Part shown: one piece after another, positions 1,388-5,111 of the stretch
Position numbering within the stretch: position 1 is the first letter of the stretch
Layout: the number at the start of each line of letters is the position of its first letter
IMG/VR virus record: IMGVR_UViG_2651869694_000013
DNA length: 23,134 nt
Origin: a virus
Lineage: Duplodnaviria; Heunggongvirae; Uroviricota; Caudoviricetes
Reading direction: 5' to 3' (one strand)
Translations under genes and position numbers: made by a program
The notes under the pieces: model-generated
What the model saw: only the letters and a program-made list of their open reading frames with translations
What the model was told of the DNA's origin: nothing
Database searches by the model: none

Positions 1388-1732
1388 TTAGTCCTTGCGT
1401 AGCTCGCTGATTCTTCTGTAAGTCTCTGGTGCTTTGTTTCCGTGTATCTTCATTTCAGACTTCAACAGAGCAACGAGGGAATCCCATTCGTTGAGGATTC
1501 CTTTGAATGCCGGAACGCGCTTTGCAACCTTGTTGAATGAATCTCTGATTTCTGGAATCTGCTCAACAAGTGCAACGCATCGTCTGAAATCGGCTGCGTC
1601 ATGGGGAGCGCCGAAGTGATGACCATAGATATTCTTTTTCAGTCCACATGCGATTGAGGCAAGAGTTGCGCTACTGATGCCAACATCGCCAGTCGATTGC
1701 CATTTCAAAACCTTCATAGCCAAATCTGACAT
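1388..1732 (-). CDS. Hypothetical protein (114 aa), exo-xis region
   Basis: Intact ORF with a GGAGA Shine-Dalgarno about 5 nt upstream of the ATG; flanked by minus-strand terminator-like hairpins. No family recognised. Confidence 0.6.
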   Translation of the reverse strand: MSDLAMKVLKWQSTGDVGISSATLASIACGLKKNIYGHHFGAPHDAADFRRCVALVEQIPEIRDSFNKVAKRVPAFKGILNEWDSLVALLKSEMKIHGNKAPETYRRISELRKD

Positions 1733-1744
1733 TTCTTGTCTCCA

Positions 1745-1770
1745 ATAAAAAAAACCGCCATCAGGCGGCT
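1745..1770 (-). terminator. Rho-independent terminator (minus strand) overlapping the stop of the upstream small gene
   Basis: CCGCC-TGAT-GGCGG hairpin followed on the minus strand by eight T (plus-strand A-run 1746-1754). Confidence 0.55.
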
Positions 1771-1928
1771 TGGTGTTCTTTCAGTTCTTCAATTCGAATA
1801 TTGGTTACGTCTGCATGTGCTATCTGCGCCCACAGCATCCAGTGGTCATAGCAGTCGCTGATGTTCTCGGCTTCGATAACTCTGTTGAATGGTTCTCCAT
1901 TCCATTCACCTGTGACTCGGAAGTGCAT
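1761..1928 (-). CDS. Small phage protein (55 aa), resembles lambda orf55
   Basis: Hand translation of the minus strand gives MHFRVTGEWNGEPFNRVIEAENISDCYDHWMLWAQIAHADVTNIRIEELKEHQAA; GGAG Shine-Dalgarno 5 nt upstream. Below the ORF-track length cutoff. Confidence 0.55.
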   Translation of the reverse strand: MHFRVTGEWNGEPFNRVIEAENISDCYDHWMLWAQIAHADVTNIRIEELKEHQAA

Positions 1929-2170
1929 TTATCATCTCCATAAAACAAAACCCGCCGTAGCGAGTTCAGATAAAAGAAATCCTCGTCAGTGCGAGGATGC
2001 TGTTCATTGCTGCTATACACTTTTTTGCTCTCAACGTAAGCGGTAGCCCATTCTGTTGGGTTGGTGCAGTTGCTTTTAGGAAATGCTATTTACCCCTTAA
2101 ATTTCGGCTGAAAGAGCTAAAATCCATGCAAAAAATTTACGCAATTTTGTGTATTATTGTGCAGTAAGTA

Positions 2171-2773
2171 ATGAGCTATTTTCTGCGCAAAAAATGGATG
2201 GTAAATTTGTCCGGGTCAGGAAAAATTTTATGGGCGCTAAACATGAAAAAAGATTCGTATCCTTATTTGATTTGCATGACAGTTTCAGGGCTGATCTTTA
2301 TTTTCCTTTTCTTCTGGTGGCGGGCAGATATCTACAGGGTCACGTTTCTTAATCAGAGTATATCCCACTATTACATTCTGTTTAGCATGGGAATAGCTTT
2401 TCTGTTATCTCTGTTTTGGGTTAAGAAGGGGATAGTAAAACAAAGCGGCTGGAAGAGTCTGTCAGCATACCTTAAGGTTTATGCAGGGATGTGCATATTT
2501 GCTGGATTTTTTCTGATTATACCCCTTACAACACTAACTTATTTTTTGCCTGGAGAGATATCGTCTTATGTTGCACCGTATCGGTATACTTCCGGTAGTT
2601 CAAAAAGTTGTTCTGGAGCTGAGGTGGATGACCCCGATCTACATGAGAATATTCGCATTTGCTATCCGTATGGCAATTATGAGTACGATAATATTATCTA
2701 TGTTGAAAAGAAAATTAATACATTAGGTGCGGTAGTAACATATGCACAGACCGCGCGTGATGATACTGAATGA
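2171..2773 (+). CDS. Predicted integral membrane protein (about 3 TM helices plus a ~60-aa soluble C-terminal domain); convergent moron
   Basis: 200-aa ORF on the strand opposite to the early-left operon; visibly AT-rich; hydrophobic segments LICMTVSGLIFIFLFFWW, ILFSMGIAFLLSLFWV, MCIFAGFFLIIPLTTLTYFL. No strong Shine-Dalgarno at 2171, so the true start may be a downstream in-frame Met (2198 or 2243). Confidence 0.55.
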   Translation: MSYFLRKKWMVNLSGSGKILWALNMKKDSYPYLICMTVSGLIFIFLFFWWRADIYRVTFLNQSISHYYILFSMGIAFLLSLFWVKKGIVKQSGWKSLSAYLKVYAGMCIFAGFFLIIPLTTLTYFLPGEISSYVAPYRYTSGSSKSCSGAEVDDPDLHENIRICYPYGNYEYDNIIYVEKKINTLGAVVTYAQTARDDTE

Positions 2774-2807
2774 GATAGTATATAGCGGGCAAGTTTTAGT
2801 TAATTTA

Positions 2808-2842
2808 TCGAGGTAATATAATTTACCTCGACTCGTTTATTC
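2808..2842 (+). terminator. Putative terminator for the convergent membrane-protein gene
   Basis: Perfect 9-bp inverted repeat TCGAGGTAA / TTACCTCGA (2808-2831) followed by a T-rich tract (CTCGTTTATTCTGG). Confidence 0.45.
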
Positions 2843-2983
2843 TGGTATTAATATTTCGCTTTACGATCGATTTTTATCTGATGATATCATGCGGTTTTCA
2901 TATACTGACTTACTGTCTTTTCTCCGTTAGCGATTTTCTCCTGCTCAGCGATGATTTTATCTTTGGCTTCTAGTTAATTTCGC

Positions 2984-3205
2984 TCACTTCGAACCTCTCT
3001 GTTTACTGATAAGTTCCAGATCCTCCTGGCAACTTGCACAAGTCCGACAACCCTGAACGGCCAAGCGTCTTCGTTCATCTATCGGATCGCCACACTCACA
3101 ACAATGAGTGGCAGATATAGCCTGGTGGTTCAGGCGGCGCATTTTTATTGCTGTGTTGCGCTGTAATTCTTCAATTTCTGATGCTGAATCAATGATGTCT
3201 GCCAT
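2984..3205 (-). CDS. DksA/TraR-family C4-type zinc-finger protein
   Basis: 73-aa product with C-x2-C...C-x2-C spacing (CCECGDPI...CRTCASCQ), typical of phage TraR-like proteins. Confidence 0.75.
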   Translation of the reverse strand: MADIIDSASEIEELQRNTAIKMRRLNHQAISATHCCECGDPIDERRRLAVQGCRTCASCQEDLELISKQRGSK

Positions 3206-3256
3206 CTTTCATTAATCCCTGAATTGTTGGTTAATACGCTTGAGGGTGAATGCGAA

Positions 3257-3281
3257 TAATAAAAAAGGAGCCTGTAGCTCC
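3257..3281 (-). terminator. Putative rho-independent terminator (minus strand)
   Basis: GGAGC-CTGTA-GCTCC hairpin (3267-3281) followed on the minus strand by a T-run (plus-strand AATAAAAAA 3258-3266). Confidence 0.45.
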
Positions 3282-3303
3282 ATGATGATTTTGCTTTTCA
3301 TGT

Positions 3304-3526: not shown

Positions 3527-4279
3527 TCACACTTCGAATGCCAGTTGAGGGGTAAAGACGTCCCGTTCAGCGTTGTAATTAAGTGAACTGGCACTGTTGA
3601 ATGATTCAATGCGTTCCACAAGAACTTGCGTACGGGTTTCTTTACTTGCGGGAGCATATGGCGAACCTACCCAGGATTTGTCGATGCCTATATTTCTTGC
3701 GACGTTCGTGCTGTCTGCAGACGAAAGCGGTACATGAGTAAAAATGTCTTTATTTAACATCCGTAACCCATGAATCTTGGTGATTGGGTAGCCGTACTGA
3801 TCTACAACATGACGTATAAGATCGCGTAGTTTAGCCCGACACGCTCTCGGTCGTTTTGCATCGTATTCCCCCATCGAGCCGATGCAGACGCGGGGAAACT
3901 CATGGCACAGACGAATAAATCGCTCATCTGGTTCGTTCATGTGCCACACCGGAGCACCAATAAATTTACCGTGAGGCCATGCCGCAATCAGGGCGTCATT
4001 CTCTTCACTGGTTCCGCCGATAACATCCGGGATAACCGCGAATGAGAAACGAGGGTGATTGCCCCAGCGTTCAACAAATCTGTAATATTCATTCCAGTCT
4101 ACGGCCTTGTTTTTTGTCCAGAATGTGAATGCACCATTATCAAGAGCAAATGATTGGGTGACTTCGGAAGCCAGATCAATCTGAGCTGGATTAGCAAAAC
4201 TGATGAATGCGTGTCTGCCTTTCCAGGCTTTCAACGCACAGGTATCGGGAGTTATTGGACCACCGTGAAAATGAATCAT
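3527..4279 (-). CDS. Putative Tgt-fold DNA-guanine transglycosylase (DpdA-like); product assignment tentative
   Basis: 250-aa ORF with a GGGAGAG Shine-Dalgarno. By eye it carries motifs resembling tRNA-guanine transglycosylase catalytic regions: SFALDNGAFTF (cf. Tgt LTDSGGFQVF), AVIPDVIGG (cf. FDEC region), HGLRMLNKD...SSADSTNVARNIG (cf. YLMGVGKPED...FDCVMPTRNARNG). No C-terminal zinc subdomain. Recalled from memory, not alignment-verified. Confidence 0.5.
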   Translation of the reverse strand: MIHFHGGPITPDTCALKAWKGRHAFISFANPAQIDLASEVTQSFALDNGAFTFWTKNKAVDWNEYYRFVERWGNHPRFSFAVIPDVIGGTSEENDALIAAWPHGKFIGAPVWHMNEPDERFIRLCHEFPRVCIGSMGEYDAKRPRACRAKLRDLIRHVVDQYGYPITKIHGLRMLNKDIFTHVPLSSADSTNVARNIGIDKSWVGSPYAPASKETRTQVLVERIESFNSASSLNYNAERDVFTPQLAFEV

Positions 4280-4440: not shown

Positions 4441-5111
4441 TGCTCCCCAAATACAAAACCAATTTCAGCCAGTGCCTCGTCCATTTTTTCGATGAACTCC
4501 GGCACCATCTCGTCAAAACTCGCCATGTACTTTTCATTCCGCTCAATCACGACATAATGCAGGCCTTCACGCTTCATGCGCGGGTCATAGTTGGCAAAGT
4601 ACCAGGCATCTTTTCGCGTCACCCACATGCTGTACTGCACCTGGGCCATGTAAGCCGACTTTATGGCCTCGAAACCACCGAGCCGGAACTTCATGAAATC
4701 CCGGGAGGTAAACGGGCATTTCAGTTCAAGGCCGTTGCCGTCACTGCATAAACCATCGGGAGAGCAGGCGGTGCGCATACTTTCGTCGCGATAGATGATC
4801 GGAGATTCAATAACATTTACGCCGGAAGTGAACTCAAACAGGGTTCTGGCGTCGTTCTCGTACTGTTTTCCCCAGGCCAGCGCTTTAGCGTTAACTTCCG
4901 GAGCCACACCGGTGCAAACCTCAGCTAGCAGGGTGTGGAAGTAGGACATTTTCATGTCAGGCCACTTCTTTCCTGATCGGGGCTTTGCTATCACGTTGTG
5001 AACTTCTGAAGCGGTGATGACGCCGAGCCGTAATTTGTGCCATGCATCATCCCCCTGTTCGACAGCTCTCACGTCGATCCCGGTACGCTGCAGGATAATG
5101 TCCGGTGTCAT
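4431..5111 (-). CDS. exo: Lambda exonuclease (Red-alpha, 5'-3' dsDNA exonuclease)
   Basis: 226-aa product matches recalled lambda Exo ([65 protein letters not shown]...). Confidence 0.95.

What the first reader, a model, noticed from the sequence alone, without database searches (positions are those of the whole stretch)
1929..2842. Convergently transcribed AT-rich membrane protein between the orf55-like gene and the TraR-like gene
A 200-aa ORF on the plus strand, opposite to the whole early-left operon, encodes about three TM helices plus a ~60-aa soluble C-terminal domain and ends at a perfect 9-bp inverted-repeat hairpin. Orientation, base composition and its own terminator suggest an independently expressed moron, possibly lysogen-expressed, in the variable exo-xis cargo region. 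No family recognised.
Basis: partly seen in the sequence, partly recalled or inferred. Interest (0 to 1): 0.5.

Follow-up and report, generated by a model that had tools for sequence, protein, structure and literature searches.

The report
Uncharacterised prophage membrane-protein cargo gene
A real, well-conserved but unstudied gene of phage 434-type prophages encodes a small inner-membrane protein with a domain facing the periplasm; it moves as a self-contained cassette between two unrelated phage types and probably protects the lysogen at the cell envelope, though its function has never been tested.

Summary
A plus-strand gene lies in a ~950-bp low-GC insert (window ~2025-2971), antisense to the whole pL operon, between orf55 and the TraR-like gene.

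The true protein is 176 aa, not 200 aa. Every diverged homologue starts at ATG 2243, and the 24-codon extension carries stop codons in diverged and decayed copies.

It has three TM helices (N-in, C-out). The ~75-aa periplasmic beta-barrel contains the only two invariant residues of the family, Cys123 and Cys140. dN/dS is 0.06-0.15.

Pfam, NCBIfam, PADLOC, PDB and viral fold libraries recognise nothing. Only PHROG_1416 (unknown function) matches.

The cassette is in 17% of complete E. coli genomes, including O157:H7 Sp3 (ECs0804), and stays intact in decayed prophages. Diverged versions sit in the gpA-portal defence hotspot of P2-like prophages and at fixed chromosomal sites in Enterobacter, Serratia and Pantoea.

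Prophage copies share a leader with an extended -10-like promoter 44 nt before the ATG. The lambdoid copies also share the 3' hairpin.

Best reading: a lysogen-expressed moron acting in the periplasm, most likely against incoming phage. Function and expression remain untested.

The parts
2025..2971 (.). 434-type-specific low-GC insert (the moron), 37.8% GC
   Evidence: More than 200 lambdoid phages share only 1929-2024. Homology to lambda, 933W and others resumes at about 2971. GC content. No minus-strand ORF of 40 aa or more lies wholly inside it.
2243..2773 (+). True coding sequence, 176 aa; the stop codon is 2771-2773
   Evidence: All diverged homologues start at this Met. dN/dS is 0.055-0.15. 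The frame is intact in 76 of 79 viral loci. PGAP annotates 176 aa in strain E2.
2171..2242 (+). Non-coding 5' extension of the 200-aa ORF (leader and promoter region)
   Evidence: In-frame TAG and TGA in the E2 copy. ATG followed directly by TAG in the Salmonella cassette. Stops in the 69-79%-identity P2-type copies.
2147..2164 (+). Two tandem TTGTG(T/C) boxes; ATTGTGCAG lies at 2156-2164
   Evidence: 1-3 copies at 10-11-bp spacing are kept in the E. coli/Salmonella-type prophage cassettes down to 52% identity, with three perfect copies in L108/L116. The 434 curators annotated it as a CII site, but that pattern occurs at chance frequency.
2179..2184 (+). -35-like box TTTTCT
   Evidence: Lies 17 nt upstream of the TAAATT hexamer. 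Conserved as TTTTCT, TTTTAA or TTTTCA in diverged cassettes. Its role is inferred.
2199..2207 (+). Extended -10-like motif TGgTAAATT
   Evidence: TGnTAAATT lies exactly 44 nt before the ATG in 70 of 79 viral loci, and within 39-45 nt in 73. These include 70-79%-identity cassettes whose synonymous sites are saturated. Not mapped experimentally.
2232..2235 (+). Shine-Dalgarno-like G-run (GGGC), 8-11 nt before ATG 2243
   Evidence: Invariant GGG columns in alignment A6; GGGG or GGAG in the Salmonella cassettes.
2261..2326 (+). TM helix 1 (residues 7-28)
   Evidence: Hydropathy and the AlphaFold2 helix at residues 5-29.
2327..2359 (+). Periplasmic loop 1 (residues 29-39, IYRVTFLN)
   Evidence: Mean column identity 0.70. 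The model places a short strand at residues 34-36.
2360..2425 (+). TM helix 2 (residues 40-61)
2426..2464 (+). Cytoplasmic loop 2 (residues 62-74), Lys-rich
   Evidence: Five Lys and no acidic residue in this copy. Family mean is 3.1 K+R against 0.5 D+E. Assigned by the positive-inside rule.
2465..2545 (+). TM helix 3 (residues 75-101)
2546..2752 (+). Periplasmic C-terminal five-stranded beta-barrel (residues 102-170), with invariant Cys123 (2609-2611) and Cys140 (2660-2662)
2808..2831 (+). Perfect 9-bp stem, 6-nt loop hairpin; tail CTCGTTTATT at 2832-2841
   Evidence: Present in 63 of 64 lambdoid copies. The E2 A->G change keeps a G.U pair. The GGTAA..TTACC core is kept in P2-type cassettes, which lack a T-run.
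1948..1998 (-). Two tandem minus-strand intrinsic terminators (tL4 of phage 434) at the left edge of the insert
   Evidence: both have T-runs; -21.6 kcal/mol. M60848 annotates t-L4 here. This is part of the backbone shared with other lambdoids, not of the cassette.

Best explanation
Window 2025-2971 is a moron. It is a roughly 950-bp low-GC cassette inserted in reverse orientation into the exo-xis (early-left) region of a phage 434-type lambdoid prophage.

It carries one gene, 2243-2773, encoding a 176-aa protein. The gene is probably read from its own weak constitutive sigma-70 promoter (TTTTCT, 17 nt, TGgTAAATT), which predicts a transcript start near 2214. The transcript probably ends at, or is stabilised by, the hairpin at 2808-2831.

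pL is repressed in the lysogen, so the gene would be expressed there. It would be silenced by convergent, N-antiterminated pL transcription after induction.

The product is an inner-membrane protein with three poorly conserved anchor helices (N-terminus in, C-terminus out). Its conserved face lies in the periplasm: loop 1 plus a small disulfide-stapled beta-barrel.

Most likely function: the periplasmic domain binds a component needed by incoming phages to deliver DNA across the periplasm and inner membrane. That component could be a phage tail-tip or ejection protein, or a host inner-membrane entry port. The lysogen would then gain superinfection exclusion or heterotypic phage resistance without cell death.

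Shown here: the gene is real and under purifying selection, the start codon, the insert boundaries, mobility between phage types, and conservation of the leader.

Inferred: the topology (strongly), the promoter and terminator function (moderately), and the anti-phage role (weakly, from context and architecture only).
For: Real gene:
- dN/dS of 0.055-0.15.
- 76 of 79 viral copies are intact.
- 915 of 5,426 complete E. coli genomes carry it at 95% identity or more.
- It is kept intact in decayed prophages where int and bet are pseudogenes (O157:H7; Sakai Sp3 ECs0804), and in a remnant that has lost almost everything else.

Start codon.

Topology:
- Three helices at pLDDT 87.
- Lys-rich loop 2 and an acidic C-domain.
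- The only invariant residues across the family are two Cys at the base of the beta2-beta3 hairpin.
- The predicted periplasmic parts are the most conserved: 0.70-0.75, against 0.47-0.60 elsewhere.

Moron features:
- Boundaries and GC content.
- All slot neighbours in other lambdoids are on the minus strand.
- TGnTAAATT at a fixed 44 nt in 70 of 79 loci, despite saturated synonymous sites.
- The hairpin.

Anti-phage context:
- Six sequence types (52-79% identity) lie between gpA and the portal gene of P2-like prophages in E. coli, Salmonella, Klebsiella and Enterobacter.
- Rousset et al. 2022 (PMC9122126) showed this interval to be the old/tin anti-phage hotspot.
- In Klebsiella it neighbours an NB-ARC STAND-type NTPase.

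Architecture: it resembles P22 SieA, which has 162-164 aa, three TM helices, sits in the inner membrane, has its own promoter and is prophage-expressed (PMC10883804).
Against: - No experiment or transcript data exist for this gene.
- PADLOC has no model for it. Hotspot location is guilt by association, since hotspots also hold non-defence cargo.
- Members at fixed chromosomal sites in seven Enterobacter species, and in Cedecea, Pseudescherichia, Serratia and on Pantoea megaplasmids, lack the prophage-type leader (checked for Enterobacter, Pseudescherichia and Klebsiella R390). That fits a housekeeping envelope role equally well.
- Siphoviruses and myoviruses with unrelated injection machinery carry the same family, which argues against classical self-exclusion.
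- The -35 box is weak, the hairpin tail is U-poor, and P2-type cassettes lack a T-run.
- No sequence or fold relationship to any known exclusion protein.
Confidence: 0.42

Rival explanations
1. An envelope or host-physiology factor not aimed at phages, for example a stress, metal, antimicrobial-peptide or colonisation function. On this reading an ordinary enterobacterial inner-membrane protein was picked up by temperate phages as a lysogenic-conversion gene.
For: - A fixed, syntenic chromosomal locus in seven Enterobacter species (gene | GGDEF | AI-2E transporter), in some species 16 nt behind a LysR gene.
- Chromosomal copies in Cedecea, Pseudescherichia and Klebsiella sp. R390, in Serratia (next to ptsG), and on Pantoea megaplasmids.
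- Retention in pathogen cryptic prophages.
- The best, though weak, fold matches are membrane-anchored bacterial barrels of unknown function: DUF1093/YxeA and YhhM.
Against: Repeated, independent placement in the P2 gpA-portal hotspot, in six sequence types. That hotspot is enriched in anti-phage systems. No neighbour is conserved across the chromosomal contexts that would suggest a pathway.
Confidence: 0.3
2. An abortive-infection membrane effector. The protein forms or gates a pore and kills or arrests the infected cell when it senses phage entry.
For: Transmembrane proteins in known anti-phage systems are generally thought to be suicide effectors, as stated in PMC9122126. The gene lies in a defence hotspot.
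Against: - It is a single gene, with no sensor partner conserved across its contexts.
- The TM helices are its least conserved part, and the periplasmic domain the most conserved.
- It is stably kept as a chromosomal gene in several genera, so it is not obviously toxic.
Confidence: 0.1
3. The cassette mainly works as a CII-activated antisense transcription unit, analogous to paQ. It would dampen distal pL-operon expression during establishment of lysogeny, and the protein would be secondary.
For: The 434 curators annotated TTGTGTATTATTGT (2147-2160) as a CII site. The transcript would be antisense to the pL operon.
Against: - The TTGY-N6-TTGY pattern occurs 8 times in the window against 6.4 expected by chance.
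- The authentic pI and pRE sites use TTGC.
- The repeats lie upstream of the -35-like box rather than flanking it.
- The repeats are kept in P2-like cassettes, and the protein itself is under strong purifying selection.
Confidence: 0.05
4. A spurious or decaying ORF with no function.
For: No annotation beyond 'hypothetical' or 'putative membrane protein'. Three of 79 copies carry a small indel, and two have an IS element 8 nt upstream of the start.
Against: dN/dS of 0.06-0.15 with saturated dS. Homologues conserved down to 17% identity, with an invariant Cys pair. A confident fold prediction. Intact in 76 of 79 copies.
Confidence: 0.02

Closest known systems
P22 SieA (inner-membrane superinfection-exclusion protein)
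   Same: Similar size (162-164 against 176 aa), three predicted TM helices, inner-membrane location, a single gene with its own promoter, and carried as accessory prophage cargo in reverse orientation to its neighbours (PMC10883804; P22 annotation).
   Different: No sequence relationship: hhalign probability is 0.1%. SieA's conserved motif FxRYPxEAxxFNK is absent and is predicted to be cytoplasmic, whereas here the conserved part is a periplasmic beta-barrel with a Cys pair. The genomic slot differs (between genes 16 and 9 of P22-like phages).
HK97 gp15, T4 Imm and T4 Sp (small membrane proteins that block phage DNA entry)
   Same: Small prophage- or phage-encoded envelope proteins that act without killing the cell. 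gp15 is a textbook moron. (Own knowledge, plus PMC11436027.)
   Different: No Pfam or PHROG match to those families. They have different TM number and size. None has a disulfide-stapled periplasmic barrel, as far as I know.
P2 old / tin cargo at the gpA-gpQ (cos-proximal) hotspot
   Same: Diverged members of this family occupy exactly this interval in P2-like prophages of four genera. The interval is described in PMC9122126.
   Different: The proteins are unrelated. Old is a nuclease/ATPase and Tin targets T-even ssDNA-binding protein (own knowledge). The window copy itself is in a lambdoid phage, not in P2.
PHROG_1416
   Same: The C-terminal 88 residues match the whole 90-position profile at E = 9e-50. 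The window protein belongs to this cluster.
   Different: The PHROG has no assigned function. It appears to be built from truncated gene calls covering only the C-domain, such as the 150-bp CDS annotated in phage 2B8.
DUF1093/YxeA-type and YhhM (DUF2500) membrane-anchored small beta-barrels

Membership tests
Moron (independent cargo transcription unit in a phage genome) | Present in some phages, absent from close relatives, with sharp boundaries | tested here: met
   Only 434, 2B8 and mEp332 among 50,697 phage records carry it. Other lambdoids share sequence only up to 2024 and again from about 2971.
Moron (independent cargo transcription unit in a phage genome) | Base composition differs from the flanking phage DNA | tested here: met
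   37.8% GC against 47-50% in the flanks.
Moron (independent cargo transcription unit in a phage genome) | Own promoter | tested here: inconclusive
   TTTTCT, 17 nt, TGgTAAATT is conserved at a fixed distance in 70 of 79 loci, including diverged cassettes. The generic promoter scan did not call it, and no transcript start is mapped.
Moron (independent cargo transcription unit in a phage genome) | Own terminator | tested here: inconclusive
   A stable 9-bp hairpin scored as terminator-like and kept in 63 of 64 lambdoid copies. The T-tail is weak, and P2-type cassettes lack a T-run.
Moron (independent cargo transcription unit in a phage genome) | Expressed from the repressed prophage | not testable with these tools
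   EDL933 RNA-seq tables exist (PMC4048457), but the Z-tag for this gene could not be resolved.
P22 SieA family | Sequence or profile similarity, including the FxRYPxEAxxFNK motif | tested here: not met
   hhalign probability 0.1%. The motif is absent from the sequence.
P22 SieA family | Roughly 160-200-aa inner-membrane protein with 3-4 TM helices | tested here: met
   176 aa and three TM helices by hydropathy and AlphaFold2. Membrane location is predicted only.
P22 SieA family | Blocks DNA injection by related phages | not testable with these tools
   Needs plating, potassium-efflux and DNA-entry assays.
Known anti-phage defence systems (PADLOC-DB v2) | Match to a defence-protein model | tested here: not met
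   No hit at E <= 1.
P2 gpA-gpQ hotspot cargo | Located between gpA and the portal gene of a P2-like prophage | tested here: met
   Met for homologues of 52-79% identity. Not met for the window copy, which is lambdoid.
P2 gpA-gpQ hotspot cargo | Demonstrated anti-phage activity | not testable with these tools
   No mention of such a single-gene TM protein was found in the main texts of PMC9122126 or PMC13586616. Their supplementary tables were not examined.
T4 Imm, SieB, Rex and pore-forming colicin immunity proteins (Pfam/PHROG models) | Profile match | tested here: not met
   The only Pfam hit is DUF6057, at E = 0.025 and below its cut-off. The only PHROG hit is phrog_1416.
PHROG_1416 (unknown function) | Profile match | tested here: met
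   E = 8.9e-50; residues 113-200 of the 200-aa ORF against profile positions 1-88 of 90.

The most novel reading that the evidence does not exclude
This is the founding member of an undescribed family of envelope-acting anti-phage proteins: a three-helix anchor carrying a disulfide-stapled periplasmic barrel with no recognisable structural relative.

The family shuttles as a promoter-gene cassette between the lambdoid exo-xis region and the P2 cos-proximal defence hotspot. It has also been fixed as a chromosomal gene in Enterobacter, Serratia and Pantoea.

It may work by masking an inner-membrane DNA-entry port. In Serratia the gene sits directly downstream of ptsG. PTS permeases are the entry ports for lambda (ManYZ) and HK97 (PtsG), by my own knowledge.

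Its conserved tandem ATTGTGCAG repeats would be the operator of an unidentified host regulator.
Probability: 0.25. Interest if true: 0.65.

Novelty: new variant of a known kind. Interest (0 to 1): 0.45.

Why it matters
Phage 434 is one of the founding models of molecular genetics, yet this gene has never been studied. It is one of the few 434 genes placed so that it could be expressed from the repressed prophage.

The same cassette is in about one in six complete E. coli genomes, including O157:H7 (Sp3/CP-933K), ETEC H10407 and Shigella sonnei, and it survives when the rest of the prophage decays. That pattern suggests it benefits the host.

If it blocks phage entry, it would add a new protein family to the short list of envelope-level exclusion mechanisms. 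It would also matter for phage-therapy host-range prediction in E. coli, Salmonella, Klebsiella and Enterobacter. Current defence-finder tools miss it.

Its movement between lambdoid and P2-like phages is a concrete example of cargo exchange between the accessory slots of unrelated temperate phages. In one case an Ea22-like exo-xis gene travelled alongside it.

If instead it has an ordinary envelope role, it is simply an uncharacterised lysogenic-conversion gene.

Tried and rejected
1. The 200-aa reading and the 434 curators' TTG start at 2207. Both rejected: all diverged homologues start at ATG 2243, and the extension carries stops.
2. The upstream 56-aa ORF 1997-2167, annotated as a membrane protein in 434. 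It is frameshifted in the E2 copy and partly lies in backbone sequence shared by phages without the cassette. Probably not a gene.
3. The CII binding site at 2147-2160. The pattern occurs at chance frequency.
4. Homology to P22 SieA. None.
5. Pfam, NCBIfam and PADLOC. Nothing.
6. Sequence search of the PDB. Nothing below E = 0.4.
8. The deep profile search found only 62 representatives among 1.84 billion proteins. Its one multi-repeat hit (P0124) is spurious, with hhalign probability 4% and no Cys.
9. Rfam on 1700-3300 gave only an insignificant isrK-like hit.
10. Literature searches found nothing for ECs0804 or OL657226 about this gene, nothing for the mEp332 record or the ECOR phage names, and no matching single-gene TM protein in the hotspot papers.
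12. The second family-wide word-index search returned mostly close relatives and added no taxa.
Full report
WHAT IS THERE

The window is a phage 434-type lambdoid prophage arm. On the minus strand it carries int (1-1074), xis, orf114 (1388-1732), orf55 (1761-1928), a TraR/DksA-type zinc-finger gene (2984-3205), exo and bet. Region 1929-2980 is 99% identical to phages 434, 2B8 and mEp332.

It is the only gene here that opposes the pL operon. The segment is AT-rich: 37.8% GC for 2025-2971, against 47-50% in the flanks. A perfect 9-bp inverted repeat with a 6-nt loop lies at 2808-2831. It folds at -12.9 kcal/mol, z = -3.7. The region holds 8 terminator-like sites against 1.6 expected.

START CODON

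The 200-aa reading is too long.

- All homologues below about 80% identity are 169-180 aa and begin at the Met encoded by ATG 2243.
- In a decayed E. coli copy (strain E2), the 24 upstream codons carry TGG->TAG and GGA->TGA, while the 176-aa frame has one non-synonymous and five synonymous changes.
- In the Salmonella cassette the upstream ATG is followed directly by TAG.
- Across 79 viral-contig loci, the P2-type cassettes of 69-79% identity all have stops in the extension.
- PGAP already aa in E2.

The 434 curators chose a TTG at 2207. That codon overlaps the conserved -10-like motif and is no better supported.

The upstream 56-aa ORF (1997-2167) is annotated as a second membrane protein in 434. 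It is frameshifted in E2 and partly lies in backbone DNA shared by phages that lack the cassette. I do not regard it as a gene.

IS IT A REAL GENE?

Yes.

- dN/dS is 0.055 against E2, 0.078 and 0.15 against two Salmonella types, and 0.11-0.14 among P2-type copies. Synonymous sites are saturated in the distant comparisons.
- The frame is intact in 63 of 64 lambdoid and 13 of 15 other viral loci. The three exceptions each have one small indel.
- The cassette is in 915 of 5,426 complete E. coli genomes, always chromosomal and at least 95% identical.
- In O157:H7 it lies in the lambda-attB prophage, where int is frameshifted and bet truncated. This is Sp3 in Sakai (gene ECs0804) and CP-933K in EDL933.
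- In strain E2 it survives next to torI in a remnant that has lost nearly everything else.

THE PROTEIN

AlphaFold2 on a 21-sequence alignment gives pLDDT 87. The model has three long helices (residues 5-29, 38-61, 70-101), then five strands. The C-domain modelled alone gives pLDDT 91.

Hydropathy finds the same three helices. Loop 2 is Lys-rich with no acidic residue, and the C-domain is net acidic. By the positive-inside rule (established knowledge) this gives N-in, C-out.

Across the family, down to 17% identity, the only invariant residues are Cys123 and Cys140. They sit at the start of strand 2 and the end of strand 3 of one hairpin. An invariant Cys pair in a small barrel is what a structural disulfide looks like, and such disulfides form in the periplasm (established knowledge). 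It independently supports the C-out topology.

The predicted periplasmic parts are the most conserved: C-domain 0.75 and loop 1 0.70. The helices and the cytoplasmic loop score 0.47-0.60. The helices therefore look like an anchor, and the business end faces the periplasm.

WHAT IT IS NOT

- No Pfam, NCBIfam or PADLOC family.
- The only profile hit is PHROG_1416 (unknown function), a 90-position model covering just the C-domain.
- No PDB relative by sequence.
- An exhaustive profile search of 1.84 billion representatives finds only 62 members.
- P22 SieA has a strikingly similar architecture: 162-164 aa, three TM helices, inner membrane, own promoter (PMC10883804). Even so, hhalign gives 0.1% probability of a relationship.

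CASSETTE ANATOMY AND MOBILITY

More than 200 lambdoid phages share only 1929-2024, the tandem minus-strand terminators annotated as tL4 in M60848. On the right, they share sequence from about 2971 onward. In those phages the slot holds minus-strand genes such as ASCH and Ea22. So 2025-2971 is an inverted, low-GC insert.

Diverged versions of the gene (52-79% identity, six sequence types) lie between the replication gene gpA and the portal gene of P2-like prophages. This holds in E. coli, Salmonella, Klebsiella and Enterobacter. There the gene is always next to and co-oriented with the portal gene, and convergent with gpA. Rousset et al. showed this interval to be the old/tin anti-phage hotspot (PMC9122126).

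In an E. coli P2-like prophage the cassette is flanked by an Ead/Ea22-like gene, a lambdoid exo-xis gene. That is direct evidence of exchange between the two phage types. In Klebsiella its hotspot neighbour is a 790-aa NB-ARC/AAA_16 protein.

More distant members (34-50% identity) are ordinary chromosomal genes. One syntenic site recurs in seven Enterobacter species. Others occur in Cedecea, Pseudescherichia and Klebsiella sp. R390, on Pantoea megaplasmids, and in Serratia directly downstream of ptsG.

EXPRESSION SIGNALS (INFERRED)

The E. coli/Salmonella-type prophage cassettes share a leader that the chromosomal copies examined lack. It consists of:

- 1-3 tandem ATTGTGCAG boxes at 10-11-bp spacing (window 2147-2164)
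- TTTTCT (2179-2184)
- a 17-nt spacer
- TGgTAAATT (2199-2207)
- a G-run 8-11 nt before ATG 2243

TGnTAAATT sits exactly 44 nt before the ATG in 70 of 79 loci. These include cassettes whose synonymous sites are saturated. Conservation at that divergence argues for function.

I read this as an extended -10 sigma-70 promoter with a start near 2214. Such a transcript would exclude both upstream start candidates. No transcript start has been mapped.

The hairpin is in 63 of 64 lambdoid copies. One natural substitution keeps pairing as G.U. P2-type cassettes keep a GGTAA..TTACC core with one compensatory pair, but they have no T-run. Terminator function is therefore plausible in the lambdoid context but not established.

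The 434 curators' CII site is not supported. The pattern is at chance frequency (8 found, 6.4 expected), the authentic pI and pRE sites use TTGC, and the repeats persist in P2-like phages.

MECHANISM

I commit to the following reading. This is a lysogen-expressed moron whose periplasmic domain interferes with an envelope step that incoming phages need. Exclusion at DNA delivery is the most likely step.

The basis is fourfold:
- a small, constitutively promoted, single-gene inner-membrane protein with a conserved periplasmic face
- repeated residence in a validated defence hotspot
- retention in dead prophages
- architectural analogy to SieA

The weak points are real. There is no experiment. 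The family sits in phages with unrelated injection machinery. Several genera keep it as a plain chromosomal gene. A non-phage envelope function is therefore a serious rival (0.30). An Abi-type pore is less likely, because the helices are the least conserved part and no partner gene is conserved.

NOVELTY AND SCORE

The gene is deposited as 'hypothetical' or 'putative membrane protein' and is not new as a sequence. As a family it is uncharacterised, has no fold relative, and is missed by defence-annotation tools.

I rate it a new variant of a known kind: prophage envelope cargo or exclusion-type moron. Interest is 0.45. It is a good, cheap experimental target in a classic phage, but nothing here contradicts current understanding.

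Noticed in passing
window 1997-2167 (+): The 56-aa ORF annotated in phage 434 as CPT_434_35 'putative membrane protein' is frameshifted by a 1-nt deletion in the E2 copy. Its 5' end lies in backbone sequence shared with phages that lack the cassette. It is probably an over-annotation.
   Followed up: partly
window 2147-2164 (+); L108 and L116, about 95-66 nt upstream of the ATG at 5001: Tandem ATTGTGCAG boxes at 10-11-bp spacing are conserved upstream of the promoter-like motif in the E. coli/Salmonella-type prophage cassettes (two copies here, three perfect copies in some P2-types). They are absent from the chromosomal copies examined. They look like an operator for an unidentified DNA-binding protein.
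   Followed up: partly
window 1948-1998 (-): Two tandem intrinsic terminators (tL4 of phage 434) lie right after orf55's upstream side. This ~96-nt segment is shared at 88-91% identity by more than 200 lambdoid and Stx phages whose adjacent cargo differs, so it may serve as a recombination joint for cargo exchange.
   Followed up: partly
L117 6001-6510 (Serratia marcescens 'plasmid' pE28_003): A 50%-identical homologue sits 235 nt downstream of ptsG, in what is clearly a chromosomal fragment (pabC-mltG-tmk-holB...hinT-lpoB) deposited as a plasmid. PTS permeases are known siphophage DNA-entry ports, so the adjacency is a lead for the target.
   Followed up: no
L040 about 221-232 and L043 about 93-104: Two lambdoid copies have an IS end (IS10-like ...GGGGATTCATCAG in L043) inserted 8 nt upstream of ATG 2243, at the same site. 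It replaces the native leader. This could be inactivation, or re-driving from an outward IS promoter.
   Followed up: no
L101 5622-6005 (-): An Ead/Ea22-like gene, a lambdoid exo-xis gene, lies beside the cassette inside the gpA-portal hotspot of an E. coli P2-like prophage. This points to block transfer between lambdoid and P2-like phages.
   Followed up: partly
L016 3251-5623 (-) and 2281-3120 (-): The Klebsiella P2-like hotspot holds a 790-aa NB-ARC/AAA_16 (STAND/NLR-like) protein and a 279-aa partner, with no PADLOC match. This may be an unannotated defence system.
   Followed up: no
window 3527-4279 (-): A 250-aa protein matches PHROG_887 ('queuine tRNA-ribosyltransferase', E = 4e-99) but no Pfam family. 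It occupies the exo-xis region where phage 434 has other small ORFs, and may be a DpdA/Tgt-like DNA- or tRNA-modification gene.
   Followed up: no
window 2881-2973 (+): A 30-codon hydrophobic ORF (MISCGFHILTYCLFSVSDFLLLSDDFIFGF) lies in the otherwise unexplained 140 nt between the hairpin and the right edge of the insert. Its conservation outside close relatives was not tested.
   Followed up: no
L023 442-969: A 3.5-kb contig binned as 'Candidatus Nanosynbacter' carries a 98%-identical copy of this E. coli prophage gene. This is almost certainly binning contamination.
   Followed up: no
[not shown]
   Followed up: partly
window 1748-1808 (-): A weak isrK-like Rfam hit (18.3 bits against a gathering score of 50; E = 0.37) between orf114 and orf55. 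It is probably just the terminator hairpin.
   Followed up: no
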